Positions 3,765 through 21,630 are shown, numbered from the stretch's first letter. The stretch is DNA of 64,000 nt from an uncultured Desulfobacterales bacterium (GCA_964450535.1 CAYVDE010000001.1:50567-114566), one strand, 5' to 3'. Numbers and translations: made by a program. The notes: generated by a model not told the origin, from the letters alone.

Positions 3765-4850
3765 ATGCAGAACTCGAGTTCCGCTCAACCAGGGACGGAA
3801 GGTCTTGCCCCTTTTGTCGCTCAATTCCTCAAGGACCGTGGAGTTCCCCGGCCCTCGGAATTCGAAGCCGTTCCCATACAGCCTGACGGCTCGGAAAGAT
3901 CGTTTTTCAGGATCCGCCACGAAGATTGCGATCATACATTCATAGCCGTTCTGAATCCACCCACAAGCCCTTTCCTGAAGAGGGAAAACACCGCCTACCT
4001 GAAGATCGGCATTCACCTGCGGGCACGGGGTTTACCGATTCCGGAGATTTACCACTGGGACCTGGACGGCGGCCGGTTCCTGATAGAGGATATGGGAGAC
4101 CTTCGGTTGCAGGATGTACTGCGCTCCGGCGTTCCCTCTCAAGGCCTTGAAGAAGACGTCCTTAAGACCCTCTTTAACATGCAGTTTCAGGGGGCCGCAG
4201 GTTTCGATCAGGCCTGGTGCTGCCAGACCGCTCGCTACAACCGGGAATGCATGCGCCAATACGAGTCCGGTTACTTTCGGGACGCCTTTTTATCACGATA
4301 CCTGGGCCTTGACCTGAACCCGGATATGCTGGATCCATCTTTTGACCACCTGGCCTCGGTTGCCTCCGGGGCCCAATCCAGGTTCTTTCTCCACCGGGAC
4401 TTTCAGAGCCGCAACATACTGGTAACCAGCAGGGGACCGGCCTTTTTAGACTGGCAGGGAGGGCGCATCGGCCCTTTGGGATACGACCTGGCCTCGTTCC
4501 TGATAGACCCCTATACGGGCCTTTCCGAGTCCAAGCGTCAGAGGCTGTACAGGTTCTACCTGGAAATGCTCCGCGAGCATGACCCTTCACAGCTTCAATC
4601 CTTTGAGGATACGTATCCATACCTGGCCGTACAAAGAAACATGCAGATCTTAGGAGCGTTCGGCTTCCTGAGCCTGGTTCGGGGAAAACCTTTTTTCAGA
4701 TCCTTCATTCCGGCGGCGGGCCTTTCCCTGCTGGACCTCCTGACCGGCCTGAAAGACCACCGGCTTGACCCCATCACCGAAGTCATGGAGTCAACCCGCG
4801 AACGCTGGCTTAGGACTTGTGGAAAAGGAACTCAACACCTATTATCCTGA
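3765..4850 (+). CDS. aminoglycoside-phosphotransferase/choline-kinase-fold kinase (AmgK-like)
   Basis: Brenner motif FLHRDFQSRNILV, then FLDWQGGRIGPLGYDLASF. Sits 17 nt upstream of the AMP-ligase. Confidence 0.7.
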   Translation: MQNSSSAQPGTEGLAPFVAQFLKDRGVPRPSEFEAVPIQPDGSERSFFRIRHEDCDHTFIAVLNPPTSPFLKRENTAYLKIGIHLRARGLPIPEIYHWDLDGGRFLIEDMGDLRLQDVLRSGVPSQGLEEDVLKTLFNMQFQGAAGFDQAWCCQTARYNRECMRQYESGYFRDAFLSRYLGLDLNPDMLDPSFDHLASVASGAQSRFFLHRDFQSRNILVTSRGPAFLDWQGGRIGPLGYDLASFLIDPYTGLSESKRQRLYRFYLEMLREHDPSQLQSFEDTYPYLAVQRNMQILGAFGFLSLVRGKPFFRSFIPAAGLSLLDLLTGLKDHRLDPITEVMESTRERWLRTCGKGTQHLLS

Positions 4851-4867
4851 CAACCAAGGAGGACACC

Positions 4868-6457
4868 ATGTTCCGAGAGCACCATAATACCCTCGACATT
4901 CCCGACGCCCCGATCACCCGGCTTCTGGAAGATACTGCGGCCGGCCATCCTGATCATATCGCCGTTACTGTGGACGGCAGGGACATGACCTACGCCGAAC
5001 TGCTCGGGGCAAGCCGGGCCTTTGCTTTCGGTCTTCGAGCCCGGGGCGTCAATAATGGCGACAGGGTGGGCCTGATTCTCCCCAACCTCCCACAGTACGC
5101 CATTGCATTTTTCGGCATCCTTCAGGCCGGCGGAGTGGTAGTCAATCTAAGCGTCATGACGCCGGGCCAGTCCCTCAAGGGACTCCTTGCCCACTCCGGT
5201 GCCGAGATCGCCGTCACCGCCGACGTTTTCGCCCAACCACTCCTGGAAGCGGCGGAAGGAGACGGGCTTAGAAAGCTGATTCTCGTTTCGCTTTCAGGCC
5301 AAGACCCGCCCAAGAGAACAGGGGCCGATACGCTCGAATGCATCCCGTTCGAGGCCCTGTTTCAAAACCTTTCACCCGCGCCCCTCCCAACGGACATAAG
5401 AGGCCGTGACACAGCAGTCTTCCAGTACACCAGCGGCACCACGGGCCGTCCCAAAGCGGCGGTCCTGACTCACCGGAACCTCTTCGCCAACGTGCTCCAG
5501 ATAGACCGGGCCGTAAACGTTCCCGTGCCGGAAAACGGCGGCACAGTCTGCGTTATACCCTTCTTCCACGTGTTCGGCATGACTGTCTGTCTCCTTTCAA
5601 GCATTCACAAGGGATATAGAATGATTCTGGTTCCCAGGTTTGACTGGTCTTCCGTGCTCTCTCTCCTGGAAATCATCAAGACATACCGGCCCGTGTCCTT
5701 GCCCGCGGTGTCCTCCCTGTGGGCCGCGCTCGTTTCACACCCCGAGGCCGGAGACTATCCGCTCGACGCCGTAATAGTCCCCAGCGGGGGAGGCTCCCCC
5801 CTGCCTGCGTGGGTACAGGAGCGCTTCAAGGCCATGACCGGACGAAACATCATGGAGGCCTACGGGCTCTCAGAGGCGTCTTCCACCACCCACATCAATC
5901 CCCTTGACCGTGTGATCCCCGGAAGCATAGGCGTTCCGCTGCCCGGGACCGAGGCCCGCGTTGTCGACCTCGAGACCGGTGAGAGCCCTTGCCGCGAGGG
6001 AGAGATAGGGGAGTTGATCGTCCGCGGGCCCCAGGTCATGAAGGAATACTGGCTTGAACCTGAACTCACCGCCAAGGCGATTCGAAACGGATGGCTCTAC
6101 ACGGGCGATCTGGCCAGATCGGATCAGGAGGGGTATTTCTACGTGGTGGACAGAAAGGACGATCTCATAATTTCGAGCGGCTTCAACATCTATCCCACCG
6201 AGATCGAGGACCTGCTGATAAGCCATTCGGACATCAAGGCCGCGGCGGTGGTAGGTACGAAAGACAAGATCAGGGGACAGGTGGTGAAGGCCTTCGTAGT
6301 GCCTGAACCGGAAAAGAACCTGACGCGTGAGGATGTTCTTGCGTTCTGCCGGGCCAACCTGGCCGAGTTCAAGGTACCCAAGACTGTGGTTTTTACGGAA
6401 GATATCCCCCATGCACCCACGGGCAAGCCCATCAGGAGGGCGCTGAGGGGCGCTTAG
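4868..6457 (+). CDS. AMP-dependent acyl-CoA/acyl-ACP ligase (ApeH-like adenylating enzyme)
   Basis: AMP-binding motif FQYTSGTTGRPKAAVLTH, plus YTGDLA and PTGKPIRR. Start moved to ATG 4868, which has AAGGAGGA 5 nt upstream. Confidence 0.9.
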   Translation: MFREHHNTLDIPDAPITRLLEDTAAGHPDHIAVTVDGRDMTYAELLGASRAFAFGLRARGVNNGDRVGLILPNLPQYAIAFFGILQAGGVVVNLSVMTPGQSLKGLLAHSGAEIAVTADVFAQPLLEAAEGDGLRKLILVSLSGQDPPKRTGADTLECIPFEALFQNLSPAPLPTDIRGRDTAVFQYTSGTTGRPKAAVLTHRNLFANVLQIDRAVNVPVPENGGTVCVIPFFHVFGMTVCLLSSIHKGYRMILVPRFDWSSVLSLLEIIKTYRPVSLPAVSSLWAALVSHPEAGDYPLDAVIVPSGGGSPLPAWVQERFKAMTGRNIMEAYGLSEASSTTHINPLDRVIPGSIGVPLPGTEARVVDLETGESPCREGEIGELIVRGPQVMKEYWLEPELTAKAIRNGWLYTGDLARSDQEGYFYVVDRKDDLIISSGFNIYPTEIEDLLISHSDIKAAAVVGTKDKIRGQVVKAFVVPEPEKNLTREDVLAFCRANLAEFKVPKTVVFTEDIPHAPTGKPIRRALRGA

Positions 6458-6710
6458 CTGAATCACTCCTCTCGCGTATGTAATCGGCCAGGACGGCCAC
6501 GGATCGGAATGCCACACGACCCTCTTCGGCGTTGCGGATCTCTACACCGAAGTGCATCTTGACAAGAAGGACCAGTTCGATGGCGTCGAGGGAATCAAGA
6601 CCCAGGCCCTCCCCGAAAAGAGGGGCGTCGTCGGAGATGTCCTCCGGAGTGATTCCCTCGATGTTCATCTCTTCCGAAATGATACGCTTGATTCTCTCCC
6701 GTATGTCCAT
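6432..6710 (-). CDS. acyl carrier protein
   Basis: Phosphopantetheine site LGLDSLDAIELV. 92 aa. The 3' end overlaps the ligase 3' end by 26 nt (convergent). Confidence 0.85.
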   Translation of the reverse strand: MDIRERIKRIISEEMNIEGITPEDISDDAPLFGEGLGLDSLDAIELVLLVKMHFGVEIRNAEEGRVAFRSVAVLADYIRERSDSAKRPSAPS

Positions 6711-6770
6711 CGGCTTCTCCCTGCATCGTTTCTAAGCGTAATCTAAGATGAAGGCTTAATGTTTTTACAG

Positions 6771-7967
6771 CTATTTGGGGCGGGCCCTGCCCTCCCACGT
6801 GATCATAAAGGCCATGACAAAGACCACCCCGCCCACTGCAAGCCCCAGGATCGGCCCTACAAGCAAGGATCCGATGAGCCACTCGTAAATCCGCTCCAGT
6901 GCCTGGTACCCGAGGGTCTGAAGAGACACCTCCGTAAGGAAGCGGCCGTGCCTCATGAAGTACCCGGCCTCAATGCAGAGTGCCGGGACCAGGGGGGGCA
7001 TGCACAACTGGCTTGCCGCAACCGCCGCGATCCGGTTCAGGCGCATGAATCCCGCAGAAAAGAGGATGGCCACCGTGTGGAATCCGATGATGGGAAGGGC
7101 TCCCACAAAAACTCCCAGGGCGACCGCCGCGGCCAGCCTGCCGGGAGATGCGTCACCCTTCATCAGGACACGCAACGAACGGACGGGGTGCAGAATGGAC
7201 ACACCGGGTCCGCCATCTCCTGAGGCGCCGGGAAGCCTTGTGTGAGGCCGGGGAAGCATTGAACGCATGCTGAGTCTTGTGTTCAGCAGGGCCAGGCGGG
7301 TGTTATCCCGCAGCAGGCTGAAGTGGGAAACGTGCAGGTCTTTGGGGGGATAGACAACCGACACGTCGACATCTCGAACCTCCACCCCGGCCCATGCCGC
7401 CCTTACCAGCACCTCGATCTCAAATGCAAAACCCTTTTCCCGTAAAGGCAGGTGCATGAGGACGTCCAGGGGGTAGGCCCTGAAGCCGCTCTGGCTGTCT
7501 CCGATCTTGCGGCCGGTCTGGACGCGAAACCAGAAATTGGAAAACGCCCTTCCAAAACGCCTTGACAGAGGAGCGCCCGCGGCCTGAAAATCCCGCTTTC
7601 CCACCAGCAAGGCCTTCGGGTACTCCTCTATGGCAAGGAAAAAGCGGTCGATTTCAGCCGGATTGTGCTGACCGTCGGCGTCGAGGGTTATAATGTGGGT
7701 CACGCCCATTGAGTGCGCCTCTCGCGCCGCAGTGATAATAGCCTTCCCCTTTCCACGGTTTTTGTCGTGACGCACGACTCGAACCGGAAGTCCCACAAGG
7801 ACTCCGGCTCCTTGGTCCGTGCTCCCGTCATCCACCACAAGAACCCGGTCATGAGCCTTCAGGGCTCGCTCAACGACTTCCCGAAGGGTCGCCGAATGAT
7901 TGTAAACCGGGATTACGATCAGAATTTCCTTCATTGATGGCCGTGCCGTCCTTTCTGGTTGCCGCAT
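6771..7967 (-). CDS. family 2 glycosyltransferase fused to a polytopic membrane domain (DUF2062-like)
   Basis: VIPVYNH, VVDDGSTD and LDADGQH (DxD) in the N-terminal half. Hydrophobic C-terminal roughly 130 aa. An alternative start exists at 7934. Confidence 0.8.
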   Translation of the reverse strand: MRQPERTARPSMKEILIVIPVYNHSATLREVVERALKAHDRVLVVDDGSTDQGAGVLVGLPVRVVRHDKNRGKGKAIITAAREAHSMGVTHIITLDADGQHNPAEIDRFFLAIEEYPKALLVGKRDFQAAGAPLSRRFGRAFSNFWFRVQTGRKIGDSQSGFRAYPLDVLMHLPLREKGFAFEIEVLVRAAWAGVEVRDVDVSVVYPPKDLHVSHFSLLRDNTRLALLNTRLSMRSMLPRPHTRLPGASGDGGPGVSILHPVRSLRVLMKGDASPGRLAAAVALGVFVGALPIIGFHTVAILFSAGFMRLNRIAAVAASQLCMPPLVPALCIEAGYFMRHGRFLTEVSLQTLGYQALERIYEWLIGSLLVGPILGLAVGGVVFVMAFMITWEGRARPK

Positions 7968-8259
7968 CTATTCCCTACCCAAAAGGAAGAGGCTTTTCAA
8001 CTCTCTTGTACGAACCCCCCACCGCAAGATCGGTTGTCCCGAATTTCCCGCCCGCAAACCGTTCACTTCAATAAAGAACAAATTTGCCGTTGCTATACTC
8101 CTGAACAGCTGCCGGCTGTCGACATAACCGCGGCTCTCATACGGTTTGACGATGTTGCAATGAATAGGGTAAGATCTGCAACCCCGGATGACAATCAAAT
8201 GGTGATATGGTTTTCACCCGGTTTTGACGAGTCAATTACTTGGATCGCGGTTCCCGATT

Positions 8260-9129
8260 ATGAAGAGCTTCCTGGTGAATCTACTGCTCCGTACGAGCCG
8301 GCTGACAGGAGGTTGGTTTCTTCGAACAGTAGCCTACGTGATAACGGGGGGATACTTCCTGTTCAGGCCCAACCGGGTCCGGGCGGGCATGGGACTTTAC
8401 AGGGCCCTTTTCCCGGAGCGGGGTCGGGTCTTCCACCTTTACGCTGTGTGGCGGCAGTTTACGGATTTCACCGCCGCATACTGTGATCGCCTGGAACTGG
8501 AGCAGGGAAGAGAAATCCACAAGACTGAAGAGGGATGGTCCTTTCTCGAGGAAGCCGCCGAACAGGGGCGGGGGGGGATCCTGCTGGTGTCTCACTTCGG
8601 CAACCTGGAAATAGCGGCCAGGCTGCTGAGGCGTAAGGGCCTTCCGGCGCTCCTGTTAATGGGGGAAAGGGACCCCAGGCAGGTAGCCAGGCAACAGCGG
8701 GAGGCCATGAAAGAGGAGGGCCTGGACATCCTTCTCTCCTCTCCGGAAGGAGGGTCTCCCTTTGACGGGCTCGAAGCCCTTTATTACCTCAGGGACGGCG
8801 GATTCCTGGCAATGGCCGGTGATCTTGCCTGGCAGCCCAGGCCCAGGCTCGTGGAGGCCCCCTTCCTGGGAAAAACTATCCTGCTGCCGGAGGCCCCGCA
8901 TGCCCTCGCCCTGGTTACAGGGGTTCCTCTCTTCACGCTGTGGGTGTTTAGAAAAGAAAGGGCCTCCTATCATGTGGTGGTCTCAAAACCACGCTATGTG
9001 GAGGCCGCCTCTCGGAAAGAACGTGCGGAAGCGATTCGACGATCCGCTCTTCTATACGCCCAGGAGCTGGAAACGGCCTTGAAAAGCCACCCCTGGCAAT
9101 GGCATGTCTTTGAACCCGTATTAAAATAA
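8260..9129 (+). CDS. LpxL/HtrB-type lysophospholipid acyltransferase (ApeD-like)
   Basis: N-terminal TM segment and the acyltransferase motif LLVSHFGNLE. ATG 8260 chosen; the ORF also opens at TTG 8224. Confidence 0.7.
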   Translation: MKSFLVNLLLRTSRLTGGWFLRTVAYVITGGYFLFRPNRVRAGMGLYRALFPERGRVFHLYAVWRQFTDFTAAYCDRLELEQGREIHKTEEGWSFLEEAAEQGRGGILLVSHFGNLEIAARLLRRKGLPALLLMGERDPRQVARQQREAMKEEGLDILLSSPEGGSPFDGLEALYYLRDGGFLAMAGDLAWQPRPRLVEAPFLGKTILLPEAPHALALVTGVPLFTLWVFRKERASYHVVVSKPRYVEAASRKERAEAIRRSALLYAQELETALKSHPWQWHVFEPVLK

Positions 9130-9227: not shown

Positions 9228-11015
9228 GTGACCGCTACTATCAAGACCAATACGGCCAAAACGCCCGCACCTGGCGGCGGCCTTGGGGAAGGGATGGCCG
9301 AAGGCTGCCGGAGCGTGGTGATCTGGGCCGATGTCCTGGACCGGATCAATGTCTTTCCTGTGCCCGATGGAGATACCGGAAGGAACCTTGCCACAAGCCT
9401 GGCCCCTCTTCAGCATGACCTAACGGGTAAGGAAGAGCTGAAAACCCGCATCCTTGCATCCGCCCGCGGGAACTCGGGCAACATAGCGGCCCGGTTCTTC
9501 TGCGGCTTCCTGGAGGCCGAGAGCCCCCTGGGCCTTCCCGAGGCCTGTCGAAAAGGACGTGACCTGGCCTATGAGGCCTTAAAAAAACCTAAACAAGGCA
9601 CCATCCTCACCCTTTTCGACGCCCTGGTGGAGGCATTGGACAAGACCCCGCCGGGACAAAACGAGGCATGGGCATTAGGAGTGATCCGTCACCTCGAATC
9701 CGCGACCCTTGCCACACGGAACCAACTGCCCGAACTCAAGGCCGCAGGAGTGGTCGACGCAGGCGCCCTGGGCATGTTCCTCTTTTTCAGGACCTGTTTC
9801 CAGGTAATGACCGGTCGCGGCGATGACCCTGAAACCCTGCCGGCGCCGCTGAAGCCCTTTCTTCACACTGTCGAGATCTGGCGGGCTGATATGAGCGAGG
9901 GGTACTGCCTGGACGCCGTGATAAGATCCGCCGAACGGAACAAAGAGGCTGTCGAGGCCTTGTCTGACCTGGGGGACGACGCCATTGCCACGTCCCGCGG
10001 GGAAGTCCTCAAGGTCCACCTCCACACGAGGGATCGAGGGAGGGCGAGAGAGCAACTCGAGAAGATCGGAGAGGTCGTGGGCTGGGCCTCCGACGACCTG
10101 GCCTTGCAGACACGCCGGTTCGCCCGGCCCGCGATTCGCCAGGCCCTTCACATAGTCACGGACGCCGCCGGATCCATAGAGCGCCATCAGGCTTTGGGTC
10201 TTGGAATCACTCTGCTGGACAGCTACATTCTGATAGGTGATGAGAGCCTGCCTGAGACCTGCGTGGCCCCTGAGCATCTCATCTCGGCCATGCAGGCCGG
10301 GACCAAGGTGTCTACGTCCCAGGCCTCGACATGGGAACGGGGACGGGCCTATGCAAAGATCCTGGACCTGCATTCCCGAGCGCTCTACATGACCGTGGGC
10401 TCGTTTTACACGGGCAATCACGAGGCCGCAGTCGACTGGAAAGCCGACCATGACCCGGAGGACCGTCTCATTCTTCTGGATTCCGGGGTGGCCTCGGGCC
10501 ACCTGGGCCTTTCGGCCATGGCCGCGGCAAGGTTTTCCATGGTCGGAGGAGACCCGGAAGAGGTCGTGGGGTTCGCCCGCAAGGCCGTTGGCGCGTGCGG
10601 GGAGGTCCTGTTTTTGGACAAGCTCCAGTTCGTGGCGGCCGGCGGAAGGATGTCCAAGACAAGCGCCTTTTTCGGGGACATGCTCAACCTGAAGCCGGCG
10701 GTCAAGCCCACGCCGAAAGGGGCTGAGAAGGTGGCGGTCCTGAGGAACCGCAAGGACCAAATCGGCCTGGCCCTGAAGACCCTGGACAAAGGGCTCGCTC
10801 CAGGCAAAACGGCCGTCGTCATGGTGGAGCACACGAACAACCGTGAGTGGGTTGAATCCGAGTTGATCCCCATGATTAGAGGAAGATTTCCAGCGGCCTT
10901 TGTCTTTGCCCAGCAGATCTCGCTAACATCGGCCGCTCACATGGGACCCGGATCATGGGGAGTCGCTTTTCTGCAAGTGCCCGAACTTGAGCGAATGGAG
11001 CCCTTTTTCCCGTGA
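9228..11015 (+). CDS. DAK2 (FakA N-domain-like) fused to a DegV/FakB-like fatty-acid-binding domain
   Basis: DAK2: NVFPVPDGDTGRN and ARGNSGN. DegV: HIVTDAAGS, STSQAS, LDSGVASGHLG, AGGRMSKTSAFFGDMLNLKPAV, AAHMGPGSWGVAF. GTG start with RBS CAGGAGG. Confidence 0.75.
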   Translation: MTATIKTNTAKTPAPGGGLGEGMAEGCRSVVIWADVLDRINVFPVPDGDTGRNLATSLAPLQHDLTGKEELKTRILASARGNSGNIAARFFCGFLEAESPLGLPEACRKGRDLAYEALKKPKQGTILTLFDALVEALDKTPPGQNEAWALGVIRHLESATLATRNQLPELKAAGVVDAGALGMFLFFRTCFQVMTGRGDDPETLPAPLKPFLHTVEIWRADMSEGYCLDAVIRSAERNKEAVEALSDLGDDAIATSRGEVLKVHLHTRDRGRAREQLEKIGEVVGWASDDLALQTRRFARPAIRQALHIVTDAAGSIERHQALGLGITLLDSYILIGDESLPETCVAPEHLISAMQAGTKVSTSQASTWERGRAYAKILDLHSRALYMTVGSFYTGNHEAAVDWKADHDPEDRLILLDSGVASGHLGLSAMAAARFSMVGGDPEEVVGFARKAVGACGEVLFLDKLQFVAAGGRMSKTSAFFGDMLNLKPAVKPTPKGAEKVAVLRNRKDQIGLALKTLDKGLAPGKTAVVMVEHTNNREWVESELIPMIRGRFPAAFVFAQQISLTSAAHMGPGSWGVAFLQVPELERMEPFFP

Positions 11016-13885: not shown

Positions 13886-13889
13886 GAGT

Positions 13890-16283: not shown

Positions 16284-16926
16284 TTTGGACCCGGACGTTT
16301 GAAAAGGTGATGACCATGCGGTCCCCGTTCGTTTCGCGGATCTCGATCGATTCCAGGTGATCCAAATCACGGGAAAAAGTCACGAGCATACGGTCCAGGC
16401 GTTCAGCCGCGGCCTCGGACCTGGGTTCCAGTTCCAATCGGATTGGCGAGCGGCTCAGAACGGACATTTCGAACCTCTCACCAAGCCAGTCAAAGTCCGC
16501 CCGGACCCATGCCAGGAGCTGCTCCATGAAGTGCCTGATGCCCGTCTCGGCACCGGGCGGCGCTCCTTCTTTTGAATCACCCGAGCCCCGCCAGGTCCTG
16601 AGTCGATCCCCTTCCGCTGAAAAGCCGAACCGCTCCGGCGAGAGGACCTCCCAGTGAACAAAACCCGGGGCCTCGTAACGAAAGAGCCCGCTGGAACGAA
16701 GCGGTTCTTCCAGCATGCCCGTGTGGCTCTCCTGGATAAACTCGCTCTCAATGGCGACGATCCCGCTGAAGGCATCGGATATACGTCTCAGGACATCTTC
16801 ATCGGACCCTGACTCGATCCCTGCGGAAGCGAAACGATCTTGAACCCACAAGGGGCCGGTGGCAATCAAAACCAATGCGATAAGGAGGGCCGGACAGACT
16901 TTCATTTCGAGGACGCCCCTGGTCAT
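16276..16926 (-). CDS. LolA-like outer-membrane lipoprotein carrier protein (ApeL-like)
   Basis: Signal peptide MKVCPALLIALVLIA and a LolA-like FIQESHTGMLEEPLRSSGLFRYEAPGFVHWEV. ATG 16926 overlaps the upstream stop (ATGA). Confidence 0.65.
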   Translation of the reverse strand: MTRGVLEMKVCPALLIALVLIATGPLWVQDRFASAGIESGSDEDVLRRISDAFSGIVAIESEFIQESHTGMLEEPLRSSGLFRYEAPGFVHWEVLSPERFGFSAEGDRLRTWRGSGDSKEGAPPGAETGIRHFMEQLLAWVRADFDWLGERFEMSVLSRSPIRLELEPRSEAAAERLDRMLVTFSRDLDHLESIEIRETNGDRMVITFSNVRVQSD

Positions 16927-17384
16927 GACGGGCTCCAGACCTTTATTTCGGCCCATGCTATATCTCTCCCTGACCGTGCCACGGCCCCCTGTGCCACGGA
17001 AAAGTCTCCAAACGATTTCTCGGTTCCGACGGTCACGACCAGTCGATCCCCGGCAGAGGCGCTTCCAGCCGTCCTCCCCTTTTTGATTCCAACCAGGTAC
17101 CCGCCGCGCACCGGCCGGCCGTTTATGAGGTTTTCGTAGCCTTTTACGGCGGCATAGGCCTGGGCTATCATTTCGAAGAAGGCCGGCGGGTCCACTCTGC
17201 CCTTTTCCGTCAGGATAAACCCGTCCTCACCAACCACGGCCTCCACAACCCCGCGGCCCGCCACAGGATCGCACTTCATGAGCCGGTCCACCAGACGCAT
17301 GGGCGGCCTGTGGGGTATTATCCTGTCCGCCGAAATTGGAAGACAGCTTACCAGCCGCATTTCTCCCTCAACAGCTATAATCAC
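16923..17384 (-). CDS. FabA/FabZ-like hotdog dehydratase (ApeP-like)
   Basis: IIPHRPPMRLVDRL motif. 153 aa. The start overlaps the ACP stop (ATGA). Confidence 0.7.
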   Translation of the reverse strand: MIIAVEGEMRLVSCLPISADRIIPHRPPMRLVDRLMKCDPVAGRGVVEAVVGEDGFILTEKGRVDPPAFFEMIAQAYAAVKGYENLINGRPVRGGYLVGIKKGRTAGSASAGDRLVVTVGTEKSFGDFSVAQGAVARSGRDIAWAEIKVWSPS

Positions 17385-17641
17385 AACATCCCCAACTCCT
17401 TCGCTTTATTGATCACAAACCGGTGTATGTCTTCAAGTGTGCGGATCTTCCGTATCTCCTCTTCGTCCCTGATCTTTATCTTGAAGGCATGTTCAAGGGC
17501 GATCACCATGTCCACCATGTCCAGGCTGTCGAGGCCCAGGTCATCGAACAGCGTGGCCTCGGGCACCATATCCGCCCTATCCAGCTCGAATTCCTCAGCC
17601 AGAGACGCATCGACACGTTCGATGATCTCCTGCTCAGTCAT
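17381..17641 (-). CDS. acyl carrier protein
   Basis: LGLDSLDMVDMVIALE phosphopantetheine site. 86 aa. Confidence 0.9.
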   Translation of the reverse strand: MTEQEIIERVDASLAEEFELDRADMVPEATLFDDLGLDSLDMVDMVIALEHAFKIKIRDEEEIRKIRTLEDIHRFVINKAKELGML

Positions 17642-18869
17642 GCTCCATTCTCCGTAATACGATCGATGAGTTTACCCCGCCGAAAGCAAAGTTGTTTTTA
17701 ATGGCCCAGGTCGTATCCTGGTACTCCACGGTTGTTATATGCCGAATGCCCTCACACTCAGGGGCGACGTTTTCGAGATTCAGGGTCGGAGGAATGCATC
17801 CCCGGTTCATGAGCTCGATCAATGCCACAATCTCGAGCGCTCCGCTTGCGGCCATGGTGTGCCCCATGTGTCCCTTCAGGCTGCTCACCGCCGTTAGAGG
17901 GCCGAACACGCGGGAAACCGCGTCGCGCTCCGCCCGGTCTCCCTGGTCGGTGCCGGTGGCGTGGGCGTTGATATAGTCGATCCTGTCGGGAGTCACCCCG
18001 GCGTCTTCCAGTGCCTTGCGCATGCAGATCTCCATGAAATCCGCGCTGGGATTGACCATGTTGGTGGTGTCGGACACGCTGGAAAAACCCGCCACTTCGG
18101 CCAGTACCGGGACGCCGCGCCGCCTGGCCGAGTCCAGCGATTCCAGGATCACAATTCCGCAACCGTCAGCGCACACCACCCCGTCCCGGTCCCGGTCAAA
18201 GGGACGCGGCGTCCTTTCGGGGTGCAGGTTGAAAGCCCTGGATGATGCGTTCATGATATCGAAAGTCGCCGTGATCAGAGGGTGATACTCCTCGGCCCCG
18301 CCGCAGACCATGATCTCCTGCCGGCCGAAAGCGACCATCTCGGCCCCATAACCTATTGTCTGGCAACTGGTGGAGCACGCAGAGGACGCGGCAAGGACCC
18401 GCCCGGTAATTCCCAGGGCGTGGCTCACATTGGCCGCGCAGGAGTGATTCATGATCTTGAAAAAACCCGTGGAGCGCATCTTTTCCAGGCTGTTGAAGTT
18501 GAAAAAATCCGAATAGGACTGCTGCGTGCTTATGGTGCTGCCCACACTGGAACCGATCGCGACTCCCATGTCTCCGCCGGCGCATTGCTCTCTGTCCAGA
18601 CCTGCCTGAAGCAATGCTTCTTCGGTGGCAAGGGTGGCGTACACGGACATGGGGGACATGGTGCGCCGGTGTTTCCTGGGAATTACCTTCGGATCGATCC
18701 CTTCCACAGGGGCCGCAACGAGACTTCCCAGGCCCTCGTAATGCTCCAGCTCCGGCACGCGACGAACTCCGCTCTTTCCGCCGATAATTGATTCCGCCAG
18801 GGTCCCCACGCCCAACCCGAAAGGTGAAACGGCACCCATGCCGGTGATGGCCACCCGCCTTCTTTCCAC
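17634..18869 (-). CDS. beta-ketoacyl-ACP synthase (KAS I/II type)
   Basis: Catalytic Cys in AASSACSTS. Catalytic His residues in NAHATGT and GHMGHTMAASG. Confidence 0.9.
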   Translation of the reverse strand: MERRRVAITGMGAVSPFGLGVGTLAESIIGGKSGVRRVPELEHYEGLGSLVAAPVEGIDPKVIPRKHRRTMSPMSVYATLATEEALLQAGLDREQCAGGDMGVAIGSSVGSTISTQQSYSDFFNFNSLEKMRSTGFFKIMNHSCAANVSHALGITGRVLAASSACSTSCQTIGYGAEMVAFGRQEIMVCGGAEEYHPLITATFDIMNASSRAFNLHPERTPRPFDRDRDGVVCADGCGIVILESLDSARRRGVPVLAEVAGFSSVSDTTNMVNPSADFMEICMRKALEDAGVTPDRIDYINAHATGTDQGDRAERDAVSRVFGPLTAVSSLKGHMGHTMAASGALEIVALIELMNRGCIPPTLNLENVAPECEGIRHITTVEYQDTTWAIKNNFAFGGVNSSIVLRRMEHD

Positions 18870-18902
18870 GCGTATCTTTCCTCCAGGCCGAATTGCAGAA
18901 AA

Positions 18903-20138
18903 TCAGGATATCCTAGAGTCCTGGAATTCCAATATCAAGCAGGAATTCGTCCCTCCGAAACCGGCGGCGTTGCACAGTGCGATTCCGGGGGGTCTTTCCA
19001 GGGCCTCTCTCAGGATATTGAGACTACGGGAGCTGTTATCCGGCTCCTCGAAGTTGATGTTGGGAGCGATAAACCCCTGGCCGGCCATGATCGAGCAGTA
19101 TACCGCCTGGGAGGCCCCCGACATCCAGAGTTCGTGTCCGGTCATGGACTTTGTGGAAGAGACCGGCGGCGTGTGATCGCCGAAAAGGGCGTTGATGCTA
19201 TCCGCTTCGGCCCGGTCCCCCGCCGGAGTGGAGGTGGCGTGTGCGCAAATGTAGTCAATGTCGCGCGGGGTCAACCCTGCTGTCTTCAAGGCCCCCTTCA
19301 TGGCCCTTAAGATACCGTCCCCACCGGGGACCGATATGTGCTCCCCGTCCGAGGAAAAGGCATAGGCCCTTATCTCGCCCAGTACCCGGGCGCCCCGGCG
19401 AACGGCCAGGTCATAGCGCTCCAGGATCAGCGCGGCGGCCCCGCCGCTGGGGACCAGCCCGTCGCGGTTCCGGTCGAACGGCCGGCATGCGGCTTCTGGC
19501 TCATCCACCCTTAGGGAAAAGGCCCCCAGCCCGTCAAAACTGCACATGGATTCCCAGTTGATTTCCTGCGCCCCTCCGCATATGACGCGGTCCTGCTTCC
19601 CGAGGGCGATCAGGTCGGCAGCCTGCCCCACGGCGTGTCCGCCGCTGGCACAGGCCGCGCTTACGGTCCAGCAAGCTCCCCGGGTCTTGAGAATGGTATT
19701 GAGGTTGATGGTTATAGTGGATGTTATGCACTGAAAGGTGAGGCCGCTTCCTATGGACCCGGTGTCCCCGTAGCGAACGAGTCTCTCCACCTGTTCGACG
19801 TTTGCGGTGCAACTCGAATCGCAACCGAAGATCAGCCCTGTCTCGGGATTAGCTATGTCCTCGGGCGACAGCCCGGAGGCTTCCAGGGCGTCCAGTACCG
19901 CCGCATAGGCCTGCTGGGCGAAATCAGGCATGCTCTTGATCTGTTTCCTGGAAAGACGGGTAGAGGAGGGATCGAATCCCTTGACAGCTCCGGTGAGCGG
20001 GCTTCTAAAGCCCAGCTCCCTGCGCCGTTCGTCCACCACAATGCCGGATTCCCCGGCCCGCAACGCCGCACCGACACTGACCGGGTCGCACCCAAGGCAG
20101 GAAACTATCCCGACTCCCGTGATGGCTACACGATGCAT
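18903..20138 (-). CDS. beta-ketoacyl-ACP synthase (KAS I/II type), second copy
   Basis: Catalytic Cys in VSAACASGG. His residues in CAHATST and MTGHELWMSGA. It therefore does not look like a Cys-less CLF. Confidence 0.9.
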   Translation of the reverse strand: MHRVAITGVGIVSCLGCDPVSVGAALRAGESGIVVDERRRELGFRSPLTGAVKGFDPSSTRLSRKQIKSMPDFAQQAYAAVLDALEASGLSPEDIANPETGLIFGCDSSCTANVEQVERLVRYGDTGSIGSGLTFQCITSTITINLNTILKTRGACWTVSAACASGGHAVGQAADLIALGKQDRVICGGAQEINWESMCSFDGLGAFSLRVDEPEAACRPFDRNRDGLVPSGGAAALILERYDLAVRRGARVLGEIRAYAFSSDGEHISVPGGDGILRAMKGALKTAGLTPRDIDYICAHATSTPAGDRAEADSINALFGDHTPPVSSTKSMTGHELWMSGASQAVYCSIMAGQGFIAPNINFEEPDNSSRSLNILREALERPPGIALCNAAGFGGTNSCLILEFQDSRIS

Positions 20139-20182
20139 AAAGCGAAATTCCTTGAAACTTCGGGCAGTTCAATCATCAGCCT

Positions 20183-20950
20183 TCAACCCATGTACATCCC
20201 GCCGTTCACGGACAGGACCTGGCCGGTAATGTAGGAGGCCGCGTCCGAGCACAGGAACCTCACCGCCTCGGCCACCTCTTCGGGTTTGCCGAGCCTTCCT
20301 GCGGGAATCATGGGAAGAATGGTGTCCATGGGCAGGTCCCCGGTCATCCCTGTCTCAATGAATCCGGGGGCCACTGCATTAACCAGGATATTACGGCCGG
20401 CCACTTCCCGTGCCAGCGTCCTGGTGGCCCCGATGAGCCCGGCCTTGGCCGCTGAGTAGTTCACCTGACCGGGCAGGCCCATGAGCCCGGATGTGGATGT
20501 GATGTTTATGATCCGGCCTTCACGCCTGCCGAGCATGGGACGGAGGACAAGCTTGGTCACGTGGAAAAACCCGTCAAGGTTCACGGCCAGTACCTCTTTC
20601 CACTCCTCGTTACTCATCCAGACCATGAGGGAGTCCCGGGTCAGCCCCGCGTTGTTGACCAGGACAAAGGGAGTTTCCAGATCGAGAAGCGGGTCCAGTC
20701 GTTCATGAGCCTCATCAGGGTCAGTCACATCAAAAGGTACGAGGCGGCATACCTTGCCTGTTTCCCGAATCCTCCCGGCCGTCTGCCCCGCAGCCTCATG
20801 ATCCCGCCGGAAATTGAGCCATATGTCGAACCCGTCTCTTGCAAGGGCAAGGGCCACGGCGGCGCCGATACCCCTTCCCCCGCCGGTCACAAGGGCGATC
20901 CTGGGGCCGTCTCGCCGGCCTTTTTCAGCTTTCTTCCGAGTTCTACTCAC
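20183..20950 (-). CDS. fabG: 3-oxoacyl-ACP reductase (SDR, FabG-like; ApeQ-like)
   Basis: VTGGGRGIGAAVA Rossmann motif and YSAAKAGL (YxxxK). Confidence 0.9.
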   Translation of the reverse strand: MSRTRKKAEKGRRDGPRIALVTGGGRGIGAAVALALARDGFDIWLNFRRDHEAAGQTAGRIRETGKVCRLVPFDVTDPDEAHERLDPLLDLETPFVLVNNAGLTRDSLMVWMSNEEWKEVLAVNLDGFFHVTKLVLRPMLGRREGRIINITSTSGLMGLPGQVNYSAAKAGLIGATRTLAREVAGRNILVNAVAPGFIETGMTGDLPMDTILPMIPAGRLGKPEEVAEAVRFLCSDAASYITGQVLSVNGGMYMG

Positions 20951-21617: not shown

Positions 21618-21630
21618 TTTGATTTCCTTT

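What the first reader, a model, noticed from the sequence alone, without database searches (positions are those of the whole stretch)
3765..20950. Aryl-polyene-like type II PKS/FAS lipid cluster with non-canonical additions
Seen: contiguous genes for an AMP-ligase, two ACPs (DSL sites), two KS that both keep Cys-His-His (SSACSTS, AACASG), a FabG-type KR and two FabZ-like hotdog dehydratases. The same block has a 4HBT thioesterase, a LolA-like carrier, an MMPL exporter, a GT2 fused to a membrane domain and an LpxL/HtrB-like acyltransferase. The ten minus-strand genes from 20950 to 11740 are packed with ATGA or 8-nt overlaps. Established: this gene set (KS, ACP, KR, DH, TE, LolA-like, MMPL, GT, LPLAT, adenylating enzyme) is the hallmark of aryl-polyene (ape) clusters of Gram-negative bacteria. 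Inference: the logic is the same, with an acyl/polyene chain built on ACP, attached to a lipid anchor and delivered to the outer membrane. The product is probably not a standard APE, because I see no Cys-less CLF, no methyltransferase and no ammonia-lyase. Four extra enzymes are embedded: a B12-radical SAM enzyme, a DAK2-DegV fusion, PlsC and an APH-type kinase.
Basis: partly seen in the sequence, partly recalled or inferred. Interest (0 to 1): 0.8.

Follow-up and report, generated by a model that had tools for sequence, protein, structure and literature searches.

The report
Trimmed aryl-polyene-type lipid cluster with radical-SAM
This is a real, conserved gene cluster in an uncultured sulfate-reducer relative that most likely builds and exports a specialised outer-membrane glycolipid; it is a cut-down member of a widespread but uncharacterised family in anaerobes that links aryl-polyene pigment clusters to the "ladderane-like" radical-SAM lipid clusters.

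Summary
All 17 genes are present with the stated domains, and both ketosynthases keep Cys-His-His. The same gene order recurs in six related metagenome contigs.

Eleven proteins match E. coli Ape proteins: ApeR, Q, P, I, K, L, M, E, F, D and both halves of ApeJ. The "PlsC" is the ApeD equivalent and the LpxL-like enzyme matches the C-terminal half of ApeJ, so neither is an addition. The APH kinase is missing from a syntenic relative and is probably only a neighbour.

The radical-SAM enzyme is the signature gene of a sub-family found only in anaerobes: Desulfobacterota, Nitrospirota, Bacteroidales and one Planctomycetota MAG. Fuller versions in Desulfuromonas add an aromatic ammonia-lyase, a phenylacetate-CoA-ligase-type enzyme, a phytoene-desaturase-like oxidase, two KS/CLF pairs and two more B12 radical-SAM enzymes, one of them TIGR04072. 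This matches the "ladderane-like" clusters of Rattray 2009.

The window lineage lost those parts. It carries a fused FakA-FakB fatty-acid kinase and a FadD/4CL-like ligase, both absent from the fuller Desulfuromonas-type clusters.

The likely product is a glycosylated glycerophospholipid with a specialised unsaturated acyl chain, exported by MMPL and a LolA-like carrier. The product and the radical-SAM step are unknown. This is a new variant of a known kind.

The parts
3765..4850 (+). APH-type phosphotransferase, weakly similar to AmgK sugar kinase. Membership of the cluster is doubtful.
   Evidence: Pfam APH E 1.4e-13. The AmgK model scores 75 bits against a cut-off of 550. It is adjacent in L002 and L007 but replaced by MarR and an ABC transporter in the syntenic L074. 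An NTP-transferase partner occurs only in L002.
4868..6457 (+). FadD/4CL-like adenylating ligase. It probably loads a preformed carboxylic acid onto ACP2. It is not an ApeH orthologue.
   Evidence: AMP-binding E 1.6e-84. NCBIfam PRK06187 gives 402 bits. Best PDB matches are feruloyl-CoA synthetase/fatty-acyl-CoA synthase at 250 bits, 4CL at 232 and FadD5/13 at about 215. There is no BLAST hit to ApeH. The ligase+ACP2 cassette is absent in L007.
6432..6710 (-). ACP2, an ApeE-like carrier protein.
   Evidence: 49% identical to E. coli ApeE. PRK09184 scores 68 bits. The DSL serine motif is present.
6771..7967 (-). GT2 glycosyltransferase fused to the DUF2062 membrane domain. It matches the N-terminal half of ApeJ and resembles polyprenyl-phosphate glycosyltransferases.
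   Evidence: Pfam GT2 E 3e-23 and DUF2062 E 2e-13. 36% identical to ApeJ residues 1-233. Weakly similar to AglJ, PpgS and ArnC.
8275..9129 (+). LpxL/PatA-like acyltransferase, equivalent to the C-terminal half of ApeJ. Predicted to O-acylate the sugar.
   Evidence: Lip_A_acyltrans E 1.9e-10. The best NCBIfam match is PIM acyltransferase. hhalign against ApeJ residues 236-558 gives probability 99.6%, E 1.4e-23. The start is taken from the 284-aa orthologues.
9228..11015 (+). Single-chain fatty-acid kinase. FakA kinase and middle domains are fused to a FakB-type DegV domain.
   Evidence: Dak2, FakA_M and DegV hits. TIGR00762 DegV scores 119 bits, above the 99.7 cut-off. PDB matches are FakA and DegV structures. 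It recurs next to LpxL-like and PlsC-type genes in L072, L074 and L075, and with PlsY in L072.
11012..11767 (+). PlsC-type acyltransferase, the ApeD equivalent. Its start overlaps the FakAB stop by 4 nt.
   Evidence: PF01553 E 1.2e-19. 32% identical to ApeD, E 1.5e-19.
11740..13035 (-). Radical-SAM enzyme 'rSAM1' with a class-B-like fold. It is the signature gene of the anaerobe sub-family. Its reaction is unknown.
   Evidence: CxxxCxxC at residues 174-181. 58-71% identical across phyla. The AF2 model has pLDDT 75 and is nearest to AprD4, MgmA, TsrM and CysS. No NCBIfam equivalog matches. It forms a narrow orthogroup.
13032..13499 (-). 4HBT/YbgC-type thioesterase, ApeK-like.
   Evidence: 4HBT_2 E 2e-15. 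34% identical to ApeK. A homologue lies within 3.5 kb upstream of rSAM1 in 31 of 42 loci.
13496..13885 (-). ApeI-like hotdog dehydratase.
   Evidence: PF22818 ApeI-like scores 29.5 bits, above the 28.5 cut-off. 31% identical to ApeI.
13890..16283 (-). MMPL/HAE3 RND-type lipid exporter, ApeM-like. The start is ambiguous (16370, 16283 or 16184).
   Evidence: MMPL E 1.4e-12. HAE3 and HpnN models match. 24% identical to ApeM. Candidate starts are listed.
16276..16926 (-). LolA-like periplasmic lipid carrier, ApeL-like.
   Evidence: LolA2_flexi scores 37.8 bits. hhalign against ApeL gives 96.2%.
16923..17360 (-). ApeP-like hotdog dehydratase.
   Evidence: Orthologues carry PF22817. hhalign against E. 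coli ApeP gives 97.5%, E 5e-12.
17381..17641 (-). ACP1, an ApeF-like carrier protein.
   Evidence: PP-binding E 3.8e-10. 44% identical to ApeF.
17634..18869 (-). KS-A, an ApeR-type ketosynthase with an intact Cys-His-His.
   Evidence: 39% identical to ApeR at 288 bits, against 202 for FabB and 187 for FabF. PRK09116 scores 400 bits. It groups with ApeR in 100/100 bootstraps.
18903..20138 (-). KS-B, a FabB-like ketosynthase dedicated to the cluster, with an intact Cys-His-His. The gating Phe is replaced (AAGFGG).
   Evidence: 39% identical to FabB at 272 bits. The best PDB matches are FabB structures. It groups with FabB in 99/100 bootstraps. It sits inside the cluster in L002, L010, L069, L070 and L074.
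20183..20950 (-). FabG/ApeQ-type ketoreductase, the first gene of the long minus-strand operon.
   Evidence: adh_short_C2 E 1e-54. FlxB scores 299 bits and FabG 293 bits. 49% identical to FabG and 45% to ApeQ. A promoter-like site lies at 20995-20966.

Best explanation
The block from about 4868 to 20950 is one dedicated pathway that makes, assembles and exports a specialised envelope lipid. It descends from the aryl-polyene (APE)/flexirubin type of cluster.

Shown by homology:
- Chain-building set: KS-A (ApeR-type), KS-B (FabB-like), a FabG/ApeQ-type KR and an ApeI/ApeP-type dehydratase pair, working on ACP1 (ApeF-like). There is no enoyl reductase.
- Anchor-building set: a PlsC/ApeD-type acyltransferase, a GT2-DUF2062 (ApeJ N-half) and an LpxL/PatA-like acyltransferase (ApeJ C-half).
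- An ApeK-like thioesterase.
- Export set: MMPL plus a LolA-like carrier.

Inferred by analogy with the aryl-polyene lipids of Xenorhabdus:
1. An unsaturated chain, possibly a conjugated polyene or a 3-hydroxy chain, is made on ACP1. The PlsC-type enzyme transfers it to sn-2 of a lysophosphatidic acid.
2. The fused FakA-FakB kinase turns a free fatty acid into acyl-phosphate, and PlsY uses it to make that lysophosphatidic acid.
3. The GT2 puts a sugar on the lipid phosphate.
4. The LpxL-like enzyme esterifies the sugar with the acid that the FadD/4CL-like ligase loaded on ACP2.
5. MMPL and the LolA-like carrier move the lipid to the outer membrane.

The radical-SAM enzyme performs an oxygen-independent modification. 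Its nature is unknown. C-methylation of a pantetheine-bound or lipid-bound chain, or an AprD4-like dehydration, are the leading guesses.

The window's version is a reduced derivative of fuller clusters that also encode an aryl starter module, two KS/CLF pairs and two more B12 radical-SAM enzymes.
For: - Domain calls for all genes.
- One-to-one similarity to E. coli CFT073 Ape proteins. Profile matches for ApeP, ApeL and the ApeJ C-half.
- KS-A groups with ApeR in 100/100 bootstraps and KS-B with FabB in 99/100. Neither groups with FabF or ApeO.
- Both KS are catalytically intact.
- The gene order is identical in L002, L007-L010 and L074.
- The order KS-A, ACP1, ApeP-like, LolA, MMPL, ApeI-like, TE, rSAM1, GT2, LpxL-like, ACP2 is conserved in about 20-30 loci from Desulfuromonadales, Geobacter, Syntrophus, Desulfatiglandales and Nitrospirota.
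- Desulfuromonas acetexigens and D. versatilis show KR, KS-B, PD-like oxidase, KS-A, ACP, PlsC-type, PCL-type ligase, aromatic ammonia-lyase, ApeP-like, LolA, MMPL.
- In D. acetexigens the three radical-SAM genes are followed by GT2, LpxL-like, ACP, KS, CLF-like, DarG and DarH.
- FakAB co-occurs with PlsY, PlsC-type and LpxL-like genes in L072, and with LpxL-like, LolA and KR genes in L075.
- FakAB and PlsC overlap by 4 nt. Genes from ACP1 to rSAM1 are translationally coupled or nearly so.
- The assignment of ApeD, ApeJ, ApeE/F and ApeL/M roles in aryl-polyene lipids comes from bioRxiv 10.1101/2020.12.19.423268.
Against: - No product has been observed for this or any radical-SAM-bearing relative.
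- A polyene is not demonstrated. The absence of an ER gene is also compatible with use of the housekeeping FabI/FabK.
- The KS/CLF pair that sets chain length in APE systems is missing. KS-B and the KR are about as close to FabB and FabG as to Ape proteins, and the KR passes an NCBIfam FabG cut-off.
- PlsY is not in this window's cluster.
- The ligase substrate cannot be read from sequence; its best matches include both aryl and fatty-acid ligases.
- The ligase+ACP2 cassette is absent from L007, so the second acyl branch is dispensable in at least one close relative.
- The radical-SAM step is a guess. Its N-domain is below Pfam's B12 threshold, and its nearest structure, AprD4, does not use cobalamin.
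Confidence: 0.6

Rival explanations
1. It is a genuine aryl-polyene or flexirubin-type pigment cluster. The 4CL-like ligase loads an aromatic acid such as 4-coumarate, ferulate or a hydroxybenzoate from central metabolism or the environment onto ApeE-like ACP2. KS-A, KS-B, the KR and the dehydratases then extend it to an aryl polyene.
For: - ACP2 is 49% identical to ApeE, the carrier that holds the aryl starter in E. coli.
- The ligase gene abuts ACP2. Its best solved relatives include feruloyl-CoA synthetase (250 bits) and 4-coumarate-CoA ligases (232 bits).
- KS-A is ApeR-type, the initiating KS.
- Fuller relatives encode an aromatic ammonia-lyase.
- The KR and LolA-like protein give their best or near-best NCBIfam hits to flexirubin models.
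Against: - The window has no ammonia-lyase, chorismate-utilising enzyme or ring methyltransferase.
- There is no KS/CLF pair for long polyene growth.
- The ligase is unrelated at BLAST level to ApeH and to the PCL-type ligases of the aryl-capable relatives. It scores highest on long-chain fatty-acid ligase models.
- The cassette is missing from L007.
Confidence: 0.15
2. It is mainly primary lipid metabolism. A FabB/FabG/FabZ-type set would supply anaerobic unsaturated fatty-acid synthesis, alongside fatty-acid salvage (FakAB, FadD) and phospholipid acyltransferases, with no specialised product.
For: - KS-B groups with FabB in 99/100 bootstraps.
- The KR is 49% identical to E. coli FabG and passes one FabG equivalog cut-off.
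- FakA/FakB, FadD-like, PlsC-type and LpxL-type enzymes all have housekeeping roles elsewhere.
- FakAB fusions also occur outside such clusters, as in L073.
Against: - KS-B and the KR are always embedded in this cluster type next to ApeR-, ApeP-, ApeI-, ApeK-, ApeL- and ApeM-like genes in every relative examined.
- Two dedicated ACPs match ApeE/ApeF better than AcpP.
- A dedicated MMPL/LolA-like export pair and a GT2-DUF2062 have no role in bulk phospholipid synthesis.
- FabD, FabH and FabI are absent from the block.
Confidence: 0.08
3. It makes a radical-SAM-cyclised or cross-linked lipid, ladderane-like or otherwise carbocyclic. The radical-SAM enzyme would form C-C bonds in a polyunsaturated chain.
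For: - The wider family matches the gene content described for the clusters that Rattray et al. found syntenic with anammox 'ladderane' clusters: radical-SAM enzymes, PD-like oxidase, PCL-type ligase, GT and an Mmp-like transporter.
- One radical-SAM enzyme of the relatives is TIGR04072 'rSAM_ladder_B12' at 691 bits.
Against: - The window lacks the TIGR04072 enzyme (41 bits against a cut-off of 360), the PD-like oxidase and the KS/CLF pairs.
- No ladderanes were found in D. psychrophila (PMC2649909).
- Ladderane lipids are known only from anammox bacteria (PMC9902471).
- The nearest structures to rSAM1 are a dehydratase and methyltransferases.
Confidence: 0.05

Closest known systems
Aryl-polyene (APE) cluster of E. 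coli CFT073 / Xenorhabdus doucetiae and its product, the aryl-polyene lipids (APELs)
   Same: - Homologues are present for ApeR (KS-A), ApeQ, ApeP, ApeI, ApeK, ApeL, ApeM, ApeE, ApeF and ApeD (PlsC-type).
- Both halves of ApeJ are present: GT2 and the LpxL-like acyltransferase.
- There is no enoyl reductase.
- The logic is the same: two carrier proteins, a glycerophosphate-sugar anchor and LolA/MMPL export.
   Different: - No ApeO/ApeC KS-CLF pair, ApeB methyltransferase, ApeG, ApeN or ApeH-type ligase.
- ApeJ is split into two genes, and its GT2 half carries DUF2062.
- Extra components: a FabB-like KS-B, the radical-SAM enzyme, a fused FakA-FakB kinase and a FadD/4CL-like ligase.
'Ladderane-like' FASII + radical-SAM clusters of deltaproteobacteria and anammox bacteria (Rattray et al. 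2009, PMC2649909; called 'ladderane' by antiSMASH in Desulfobacterota MAGs, PMC9902471)
   Same: - The window's genes are orthologous (52-71% identity for KS-A, KS-B, ACP1 and rSAM1) to part of these clusters in Desulfuromonas, Geobacter and Syntrophus.
- The product is equally unknown.
   Different: The window lacks the defining extras of that family: the TIGR04072 B12 radical-SAM enzyme, a third radical-SAM enzyme, the phytoene-desaturase-like oxidase, the PCL-type ligase, the KS/inactive-KS pairs and DarG/DarH.
Flexirubin / dialkylresorcinol and xanthomonadin-type clusters (Bacteroidota, Azoarcus 'arcuflavin', PMC3949708)
   Same: - GT, LolA-like, exporter and acyltransferase genes are shared.
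- The KR and LolA-like protein hit flexirubin NCBIfam models below cut-off.
- Relatives carry DarG, DarH and TAL.
- rSAM1 orthologues sit in DarG/DarH/StlD-DarB-like clusters of Rikenellaceae.
   Different: - The window has no DarA/DarB, DarG/DarH, TAL or halogenase.
- No paper in the searched library links a radical-SAM enzyme with flexirubin or xanthomonadin clusters.
Fatty-acid kinase FakA/FakB (Staphylococcus, Streptococcus)
   Same: The N-terminal Dak2 kinase and middle domains match FakA structures. The C-terminal domain is a bona fide DegV/FakB fatty-acid-binding domain.
   Different: - The two subunits are one polypeptide, and the FakA C-terminal docking domain is replaced by the DegV domain itself.
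- It is embedded in a specialised-lipid cluster.
- The fusion itself is common: more than 5000 homologues, with the same three-domain architecture in the 120 listed.
Class-B radical-SAM enzymes AprD4, MgmA, TsrM and CysS
   Same: The fold is shared: a Rossmann-like N-domain plus a radical-SAM barrel, Foldseek E 4e-14 to 1e-7 and TM 0.53-0.68. The CxxxCxxC motif is present.
   Different: - Only 14-18% sequence identity.
- No family model is reached.
- Cobalamin use is unknown.
- The context is a ketoacyl-lipid pathway. A 2026 review says radical-SAM modification has so far been proposed only for ladderanes and jawsamycin in such pathways (PMC13459092).

Membership tests
Aryl-polyene (APE) biosynthetic gene cluster family | ApeR-type initiating ketosynthase | tested here: met
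   KS-A is 39% identical to ApeR at 288 bits, more than to FabB or FabF. It groups with ApeR in 100/100 bootstraps.
Aryl-polyene (APE) biosynthetic gene cluster family | ApeO/ApeC ketosynthase-chain-length-factor heterodimer | tested here: not met
   The window holds only two KS genes and both have an active-site Cys. Neither groups with ApeO (0/100). There is no ApeC homologue.
Aryl-polyene (APE) biosynthetic gene cluster family | Two dedicated carrier proteins (ApeE, ApeF) | tested here: met
   ACP2 is 49% identical to ApeE and ACP1 is 44% identical to ApeF. Each is closer to its Ape partner than to AcpP.
Aryl-polyene (APE) biosynthetic gene cluster family | ApeI/ApeP dehydratase pair and ApeQ reductase, with no enoyl reductase | tested here: met
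   The ApeI-like Pfam hit is above cut-off. The ApeP-like profile matches ApeP at 97.5%. The KR is 45% identical to ApeQ. No ER domain occurs in 4868-20950.
Aryl-polyene (APE) biosynthetic gene cluster family | ApeH-type adenylating enzyme and a supply of aryl starter acid | tested here: not met
   The ligase has no BLAST-level similarity to ApeH; the only match is at superfamily level. The window has no ammonia-lyase or chorismate-utilising enzyme, while relatives have TAL and a PCL-type ligase.
Aryl-polyene (APE) biosynthetic gene cluster family | Lipid-anchor enzymes ApeD (LPLAT) and ApeJ (glycosyl/acyltransferase) | tested here: met
   The PlsC-type protein is 32% identical to ApeD. The GT2 is 36% identical to the ApeJ N-half. 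The LpxL-like profile matches the ApeJ C-half at 99.6%.
Aryl-polyene (APE) biosynthetic gene cluster family | ApeK thioesterase and ApeL/ApeM (LolA-like/MMPL) export pair | tested here: met
   The TE is 34% identical to ApeK and the MMPL is 24% identical to ApeM. The LolA-like profile matches ApeL at 96.2%. ApeN and ApeG have no counterpart.
Aryl-polyene (APE) biosynthetic gene cluster family | Product is a yellow aryl-polyene chromophore bound to a lipid | not testable with these tools
   This needs expression with UV-vis and LC-MS.
'Ladderane-like' FASII/radical-SAM clusters (Rattray 2009; NCBIfam TIGR04072) | TIGR04072 'lipid biosynthesis B12-binding/radical SAM protein' | tested here: not met
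   The window's radical-SAM enzyme scores 41 bits against a cut-off of 360. The second radical-SAM enzyme of D. acetexigens scores 691 bits, and it has no counterpart in the window.
'Ladderane-like' FASII/radical-SAM clusters (Rattray 2009; NCBIfam TIGR04072) | Phytoene-desaturase-like amine oxidase, PCL-type ligase and a KS plus inactive-KS pair | tested here: not met
   All are present in L001, L068, L069 and L070. None occurs in the window.
'Ladderane-like' FASII/radical-SAM clusters (Rattray 2009; NCBIfam TIGR04072) | Orthology and synteny of the remaining genes with those clusters | tested here: met
   Identities to the Desulfuromonas-type clusters are KS-A 52-58%, KS-B 71%, ACP1 65-75%, rSAM1 67-71%, TE 50-60% and GT2 53-61%, in the same relative order.
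Fatty-acid kinase (FakA + FakB) | FakA Dak2 kinase domain plus middle domain | tested here: met
   Dak2 E 6e-17, FakA_M E 1.6e-8 and YloV 143 bits over residues 26-299. PDB matches are 7w7h and 8vip.
Fatty-acid kinase (FakA + FakB) | FakB/DegV fatty-acid-binding protein as a separate subunit docking on the FakA C-domain | tested here: not met
   The DegV domain (119 bits, above the 99.7 cut-off) is fused in place of the FakA C-terminal domain.
Cobalamin-dependent (class B) radical-SAM enzymes | CxxxCxxC cluster motif and radical-SAM barrel | tested here: met
   C174/C178/C181 are present and invariant in 25-30 homologues. The fold matches radical-SAM enzymes.
Cobalamin-dependent (class B) radical-SAM enzymes | Cobalamin-binding N-terminal domain | tested here: inconclusive
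   Pfam B12-binding scores 24.6 bits, below the 32.1 cut-off. The best structural match, AprD4, has the domain but not the cofactor. The next matches (MgmA, TsrM, CysS) do bind cobalamin.

The most novel reading that the evidence does not exclude
The radical-SAM enzyme (rSAM1) would found a new, tightly conserved orthogroup of oxygen-independent lipid-modifying enzymes. This orthogroup would tie together three things so far treated separately: aryl-polyene/flexirubin clusters, dialkylresorcinol-type clusters of anaerobic Bacteroidales, and the 'ladderane-like' FASII clusters of Desulfobacterota.

The window's lineage keeps rSAM1 but has shed the other two radical-SAM enzymes, both KS/CLF pairs and the aryl module. 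It would then be the simplest natural system in which to find out what rSAM1 does to a ketoacyl lipid. That would give a first experimental handle on the radical chemistry of the ladderane-type cluster family.
Probability: 0.3. Interest if true: 0.8.

Novelty: new variant of a known kind. Interest (0 to 1): 0.55.

Why it matters
Aryl-polyene clusters are described as the most widespread biosynthetic cluster family of Gram-negative bacteria. antiSMASH repeatedly calls 'ladderane' clusters in anaerobic non-anammox MAGs, and nobody knows what they make.

This analysis shows that the two are overlapping versions of one modular system. It identifies one radical-SAM enzyme as the constant element in anaerobes. 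It also shows a natural minimal version combined with an acyl-phosphate (FakAB) route to the lipid anchor.

A 2026 review states that radical-SAM modification of ketoacyl (non-isoprenoid) lipids has been proposed only for ladderanes and jawsamycin (PMC13459092). A third, very widespread case would be of real interest to lipid biochemists and to geochemists looking for biomarkers of anaerobes.

The gene content itself is unsurprising to a specialist, and nothing here reveals the product.

Tried and rejected
- **Flavin reductase (21051-21734) and class II aldolase (21631-22479) as cluster members, for example as a substitute ER.** Rejected. They are kept only in the closest relatives L002 and L008 and are not detected upstream of the KR in L009 or L010. 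A promoter-like site lies between them and the KR.
- **APH plus NTP-transferase as a sugar-activation pair feeding the GT2.** The NTP-transferase occurs only in L002 and is absent from the window and all other loci. The APH is absent from syntenic L074. It is left as a doubtful member.
- **KS-B as the organism's housekeeping FabB.** Rejected. Its 70%-identical homologues are embedded in the same cluster type in D. acetexigens, D. versatilis, L074, L002 and L010.
- **Sequence search of rSAM1 against solved structures.** Only marginal hits were found (AprD4, E 9e-5). A fold search was needed.
- **NCBIfam scan of rSAM1 and of its 35%-identical paralogues.** No named family was reached.
- **Rfam scan of the whole window, for example for a cobalamin riboswitch.** Nothing was found. 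No tRNAs were found.
- **ORF 7959-8486 (175 aa).** It has no family hits and overlaps the divergent promoter region and the LpxL-like start, so it is treated as not a gene.
- **Literature.** No paper in the library combines flexirubin or xanthomonadin with radical SAM. Searches for aryl polyene with Geobacter or Desulfuromonas gave only BGC surveys.
- **Technical failures.** The first hhalign script timed out. One alignment failed on an internal stop in L042.

Full report
**Observation**

Reading left to right, the genes are:

| Coordinates | Strand | Gene |
|---|---|---|
| 3765-4850 | + | APH-type kinase |
| 4868-6457 | + | AMP-ligase |
| 6432-6710 | - | ACP2 |
| 6771-7967 | - | GT2+DUF2062 |
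| 8275-9129 | + | LpxL-like acyltransferase |
| 9228-11015 | + | Dak2+FakA_M+DegV fusion |
| 11012-11767 | + | PlsC-type acyltransferase |
| 11740-13035 | - | radical-SAM enzyme |
| 13032-13499 | - | 4HBT thioesterase |
| 13496-13885 | - | ApeI-like hotdog |
| 13890-about 16283 | - | MMPL |
| 16276-16926 | - | LolA-like |
| 16923-17360 | - | ApeP-like hotdog |
| 17381-17641 | - | ACP1 |
| 17634-18869 | - | KS-A |
| 18903-20138 | - | KS-B |
| 20183-20950 | - | KR |

- Both KS retain Cys-His-His and the Lys. Both ACPs carry LGLDSLD.
- Junctions from KS-A to the radical-SAM gene are 8-nt or ATGA overlaps or short gaps. The first two junctions, KR/KS-B and KS-B/KS-A, have 44- and 33-nt gaps.
- The radical-SAM gene scores below Pfam's thresholds for both of its domains. 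It has an invariant CxxxCxxC and a class-B-like fold.

**Comparison with a reference APE cluster**

I fetched the E. coli CFT073 APE cluster (L004) and E. coli fabF and fabB.

BLASTP identities to E. coli proteins:

| Window protein | E. coli match |
|---|---|
| ACP2 | ApeE 49% |
| ACP1 | ApeF 44% |
| KS-A | ApeR 39% (288 bits; FabB 202, FabF 187, ApeO 98) |
| KS-B | FabB 39% (272 bits; ApeR and FabF 200 each) |
| KR | FabG 49%, ApeQ 45% |
| GT2 | ApeJ N-half 36% |
| PlsC-type | ApeD 32% |
| TE | ApeK 34% |
| ApeI-like | ApeI 31% |
| MMPL | ApeM 24% |

Profile-sequence comparison adds three more matches:
- ApeP-like against ApeP, 97.5%.
- LolA-like against ApeL, 96.2%.
- The LpxL-like family against residues 236-558 of ApeJ, 99.6%, E 1.4e-23.

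E. coli ApeJ is therefore a GT2 + LpxL-like fusion that is split into two genes here. Neither the PlsC-type nor the LpxL-like gene is an 'addition'.

There is no homologue of ApeB, ApeC, ApeG, ApeN or ApeO. The ligase is not ApeH-like.

In a neighbour-joining analysis the KS-A family joins ApeR in 100/100 bootstraps and the KS-B family joins FabB in 99/100. Neither joins FabF or ApeO. Reference sampling is thin, with E. coli sequences only.

**Synteny**

- The radical-SAM protein has thousands of close homologues.
- A scan of one genome per species returned 61 loci. I mapped them with tblastn using the window's proteins.
- Six contigs keep the window's architecture gene for gene. These are L002, L007-L010 and L074, from Desulfatiglandales, 'Desulfobacterales' and Thermodesulfobacteriota MAGs.
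- L007 lacks the ligase+ACP2 cassette. L074 lacks the APH kinase.
- A further 20-30 loci come from Desulfuromonadales, Geobacter, Syntrophus, other Desulfatiglandales and Nitrospirota. They share the order KS-A, ACP1, PlsC-type, ApeP-like, LolA, MMPL, ApeI-like, TE, (KS+CLF-like), rSAM1, two more B12 radical-SAM genes, GT2-DUF2062, LpxL-like, ACP2, KS+CLF-like.
- A TE lies within 3.5 kb upstream of rSAM1 in 31/42 loci, an MMPL in 23/35 and a LolA-like gene in 22/34. FakAB occurs in only 4/43.
- In D. acetexigens and D. versatilis the left arm reads KR, KS-B, phytoene-desaturase-like amine oxidase, KS-A, ACP, PlsC-type, PCL-type AMP-ligase, aromatic ammonia-lyase, ApeP-like, LolA, MMPL.
- In D. 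acetexigens the right arm has three radical-SAM genes. The second is TIGR04072 'rSAM_ladder_B12' at 691 bits. It also has DarG- and DarH-family genes.

**Link to earlier literature**

This gene content is what Rattray et al. (2009, PMC2649909) described as FASII clusters syntenic between Kuenenia and Desulfotalea, Geobacter and Pelobacter. They listed radical-SAM enzymes, PD-like oxidases, a 'phenylacetyl-CoA ligase', a GT and an Mmp-like membrane protein.

MAG surveys report these as 'ladderane' BGCs of unknown function in Desulfobacterota (PMC9902471).

The searched ladderane papers do not mention aryl polyenes. No paper in the library pairs flexirubin or xanthomonadin with radical SAM.

**What is special in the window lineage**

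Relative to the fuller clusters it has lost:
- the PD-like oxidase;
- the PCL-type ligase;
- the ammonia-lyase;
- both KS/CLF pairs;
- radical-SAM enzymes 2 and 3;
- DarG, DarH and the ABC transporter.

Unlike the fuller clusters, it carries an operon of LpxL-like, FakA-FakB fusion and PlsC-type genes, plus a FadD/4CL-like ligase placed convergent with ACP2.

The fusion has the FakA kinase and middle domains and a true DegV domain above the TIGR00762 cut-off. The architecture is common, with more than 5000 homologues. It recurs with:
- LpxL-like, PlsC-type, ACP, a FadD-like ligase and PlsY in L072;
- LpxL-like, LolA and KR in L075.

It also occurs alone, in L073. PlsY uses acyl-phosphate, the Fak product (established knowledge). 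This supports a FakAB, then PlsY, then PlsC route to the phosphatidic-acid core.

**The radical-SAM enzyme**

- It is 58-71% identical from Desulfobacterota to Bacteroidales.
- It collapses into about two 50%-identity clusters. The next relatives are at 37% identity or less.
- It reaches no NCBIfam family.
- Its AF2 model (pLDDT 75) is closest to AprD4, a diol dehydratase without cobalamin (E 4e-14, TM 0.67). The next matches are the cobalamin-dependent methylases MgmA, TsrM and CysS.
- In Rikenellaceae and other Bacteroidales it sits with DarG-like, DarH, ACP, a sulfotransferase, a PCL-type ligase, a StlD/DarB-like KS, a TE, a PD-like oxidase and GT2-DUF2062.
- One paralogue (34% identity) is fused to an MMPL transporter (P0463). 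This hints that the family acts on the lipid handled by the exporter.
- All taxa that carry it are anaerobes.
- Its reaction remains unknown. I rank C-methylation and AprD4-like dehydration above C-C cyclisation.

**Mechanism**

Steps marked 'inferred' rest on the APEL pathway proposed for Xenorhabdus.

1. KS-A, KS-B, the KR and the ApeI/ApeP-like dehydratases extend a chain on ACP1 without enoyl reduction. The gene content is shown. The unsaturated or polyene nature of the chain is inferred.
2. rSAM1 modifies the chain or the lipid (inferred; step unknown).
3. FakAB and PlsY supply 1-acyl-G3P. The PlsC/ApeD-type enzyme adds the special chain (inferred).
4. GT2-DUF2062 resembles polyprenyl-phosphate glycosyltransferases. 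It adds a sugar to the phosphate, as ApeJ does (inferred).
5. The LpxL/PatA-like enzyme acylates the sugar with the acid that the ligase loaded on ACP2 (inferred). This branch is absent in L007.
6. The ApeK-like TE edits or releases the chain. MMPL and the LolA-like carrier take the lipid to the outer membrane (inferred).

**Verdict**

It also misses that the cluster is a trimmed member of a family already flagged in 2009.

The cluster is a new variant of a known kind. The product is unknown and interest is moderate.

The surrounding window is ordinary chromosome. It contains EF-G, a beta-oxidation operon, signalling proteins and TPR proteins, no tRNAs and no Rfam matches.

Noticed in passing
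window 6432-6457 and 11740-11767: Two pairs of convergent genes overlap at their 3' ends. The AMP-ligase and ACP2 overlap by 26 nt, and the PlsC-type gene and the radical-SAM gene overlap by 28 nt. No terminator can sit between them, so antisense read-through is possible.
   Followed up: no
P0463 (protein; no locus): This 1210-aa protein fuses an MMPL/HAE3 transporter (residues about 148-750) to a 34%-identical paralogue of the window's radical-SAM enzyme (residues 811-1176). It is a Rosetta-stone hint that this radical-SAM family works with lipid exporters.
   Followed up: partly
L047 1-21212 and L050 7000-11300 (Rikenellaceae / Bacteroidales MAGs): Orthologues of the radical-SAM enzyme (58-62% identity) lie in a different cluster. 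It contains DarG-like, DarH (BtrH-like), ACP, a sulfotransferase, a PCL-type ligase, a StlD/DarB-like ketosynthase, two crotonases, an O-methyltransferase, a PD-like oxidase and GT2-DUF2062. It may make a sulfated resorcinol- or stilbene-type lipid in anaerobic gut or sediment Bacteroidales.
   Followed up: partly
L069 9016-21221 and L070 9205-21221 (Desulfuromonas acetexigens, D. versatilis): Cultured Desulfuromonas species encode the full version, with an aromatic ammonia-lyase, a PCL-type ligase and a phytoene-desaturase-like oxidase between KS-B and the ApeP-like gene. In D. acetexigens the radical-SAM arm (L001) lies about 27 kb away on the same contig, on the opposite strand.
   Followed up: partly
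L072 2750-9521: A related cluster carries PlsY (G3P_acyltransf) together with ACP, an ApeI-like gene, a second ACP, a FadD-like ligase, an LpxL-like gene, the FakAB fusion and a PlsC-type gene. This is a complete acyl-phosphate route to phosphatidic acid inside a specialised-lipid cluster. No radical-SAM gene is seen within the 7-kb flanks.
   Followed up: partly
window 18903-20138 (KS-B): KS-B and its orthologues have AAGFGG where FabF and FabB have SFGFGG. The gating phenylalanine of FabF/FabB is replaced by alanine. KS-A and KS-B both read AHATG where FabF, FabB and ApeR read AHGTG or SHGTS (ApeO: LHGTG).
   Followed up: no
window 2374-3579 (-): An EAL+HDOD protein lies directly upstream of the APH gene, at the position where L002 has an NTP-transferase. 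An EAL+HDOD gene also lies about 8 kb from the FakAB fusion in the unrelated locus L075. This is probably a coincidence.
   Followed up: no
window 32521-38146 (-): This is a beta-oxidation operon. It has an acyl-CoA dehydrogenase with an extra C-terminal domain, a probable thiolase, and a fused 3-hydroxyacyl-CoA dehydrogenase/enoyl-CoA hydratase. It lies about 12 kb from the lipid cluster.
   Followed up: no
window 45703-47334 (+): A single 543-aa ORF combines a GFO/IDH/MocA oxidoreductase with a hexapeptide-repeat acyltransferase domain, resembling a fused sugar oxidase/N-acetyltransferase. It lies next to a dCache-HAMP-SpoIIE phosphatase at 43754-45670.
   Followed up: no
window 7959-8486 (+): This 175-aa ORF has no family hit. 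It spans the divergent intergenic region between the GT2 and LpxL-like genes and is most likely not a gene. A promoter-like site at 8146-8175 lies inside it.
   Followed up: partly
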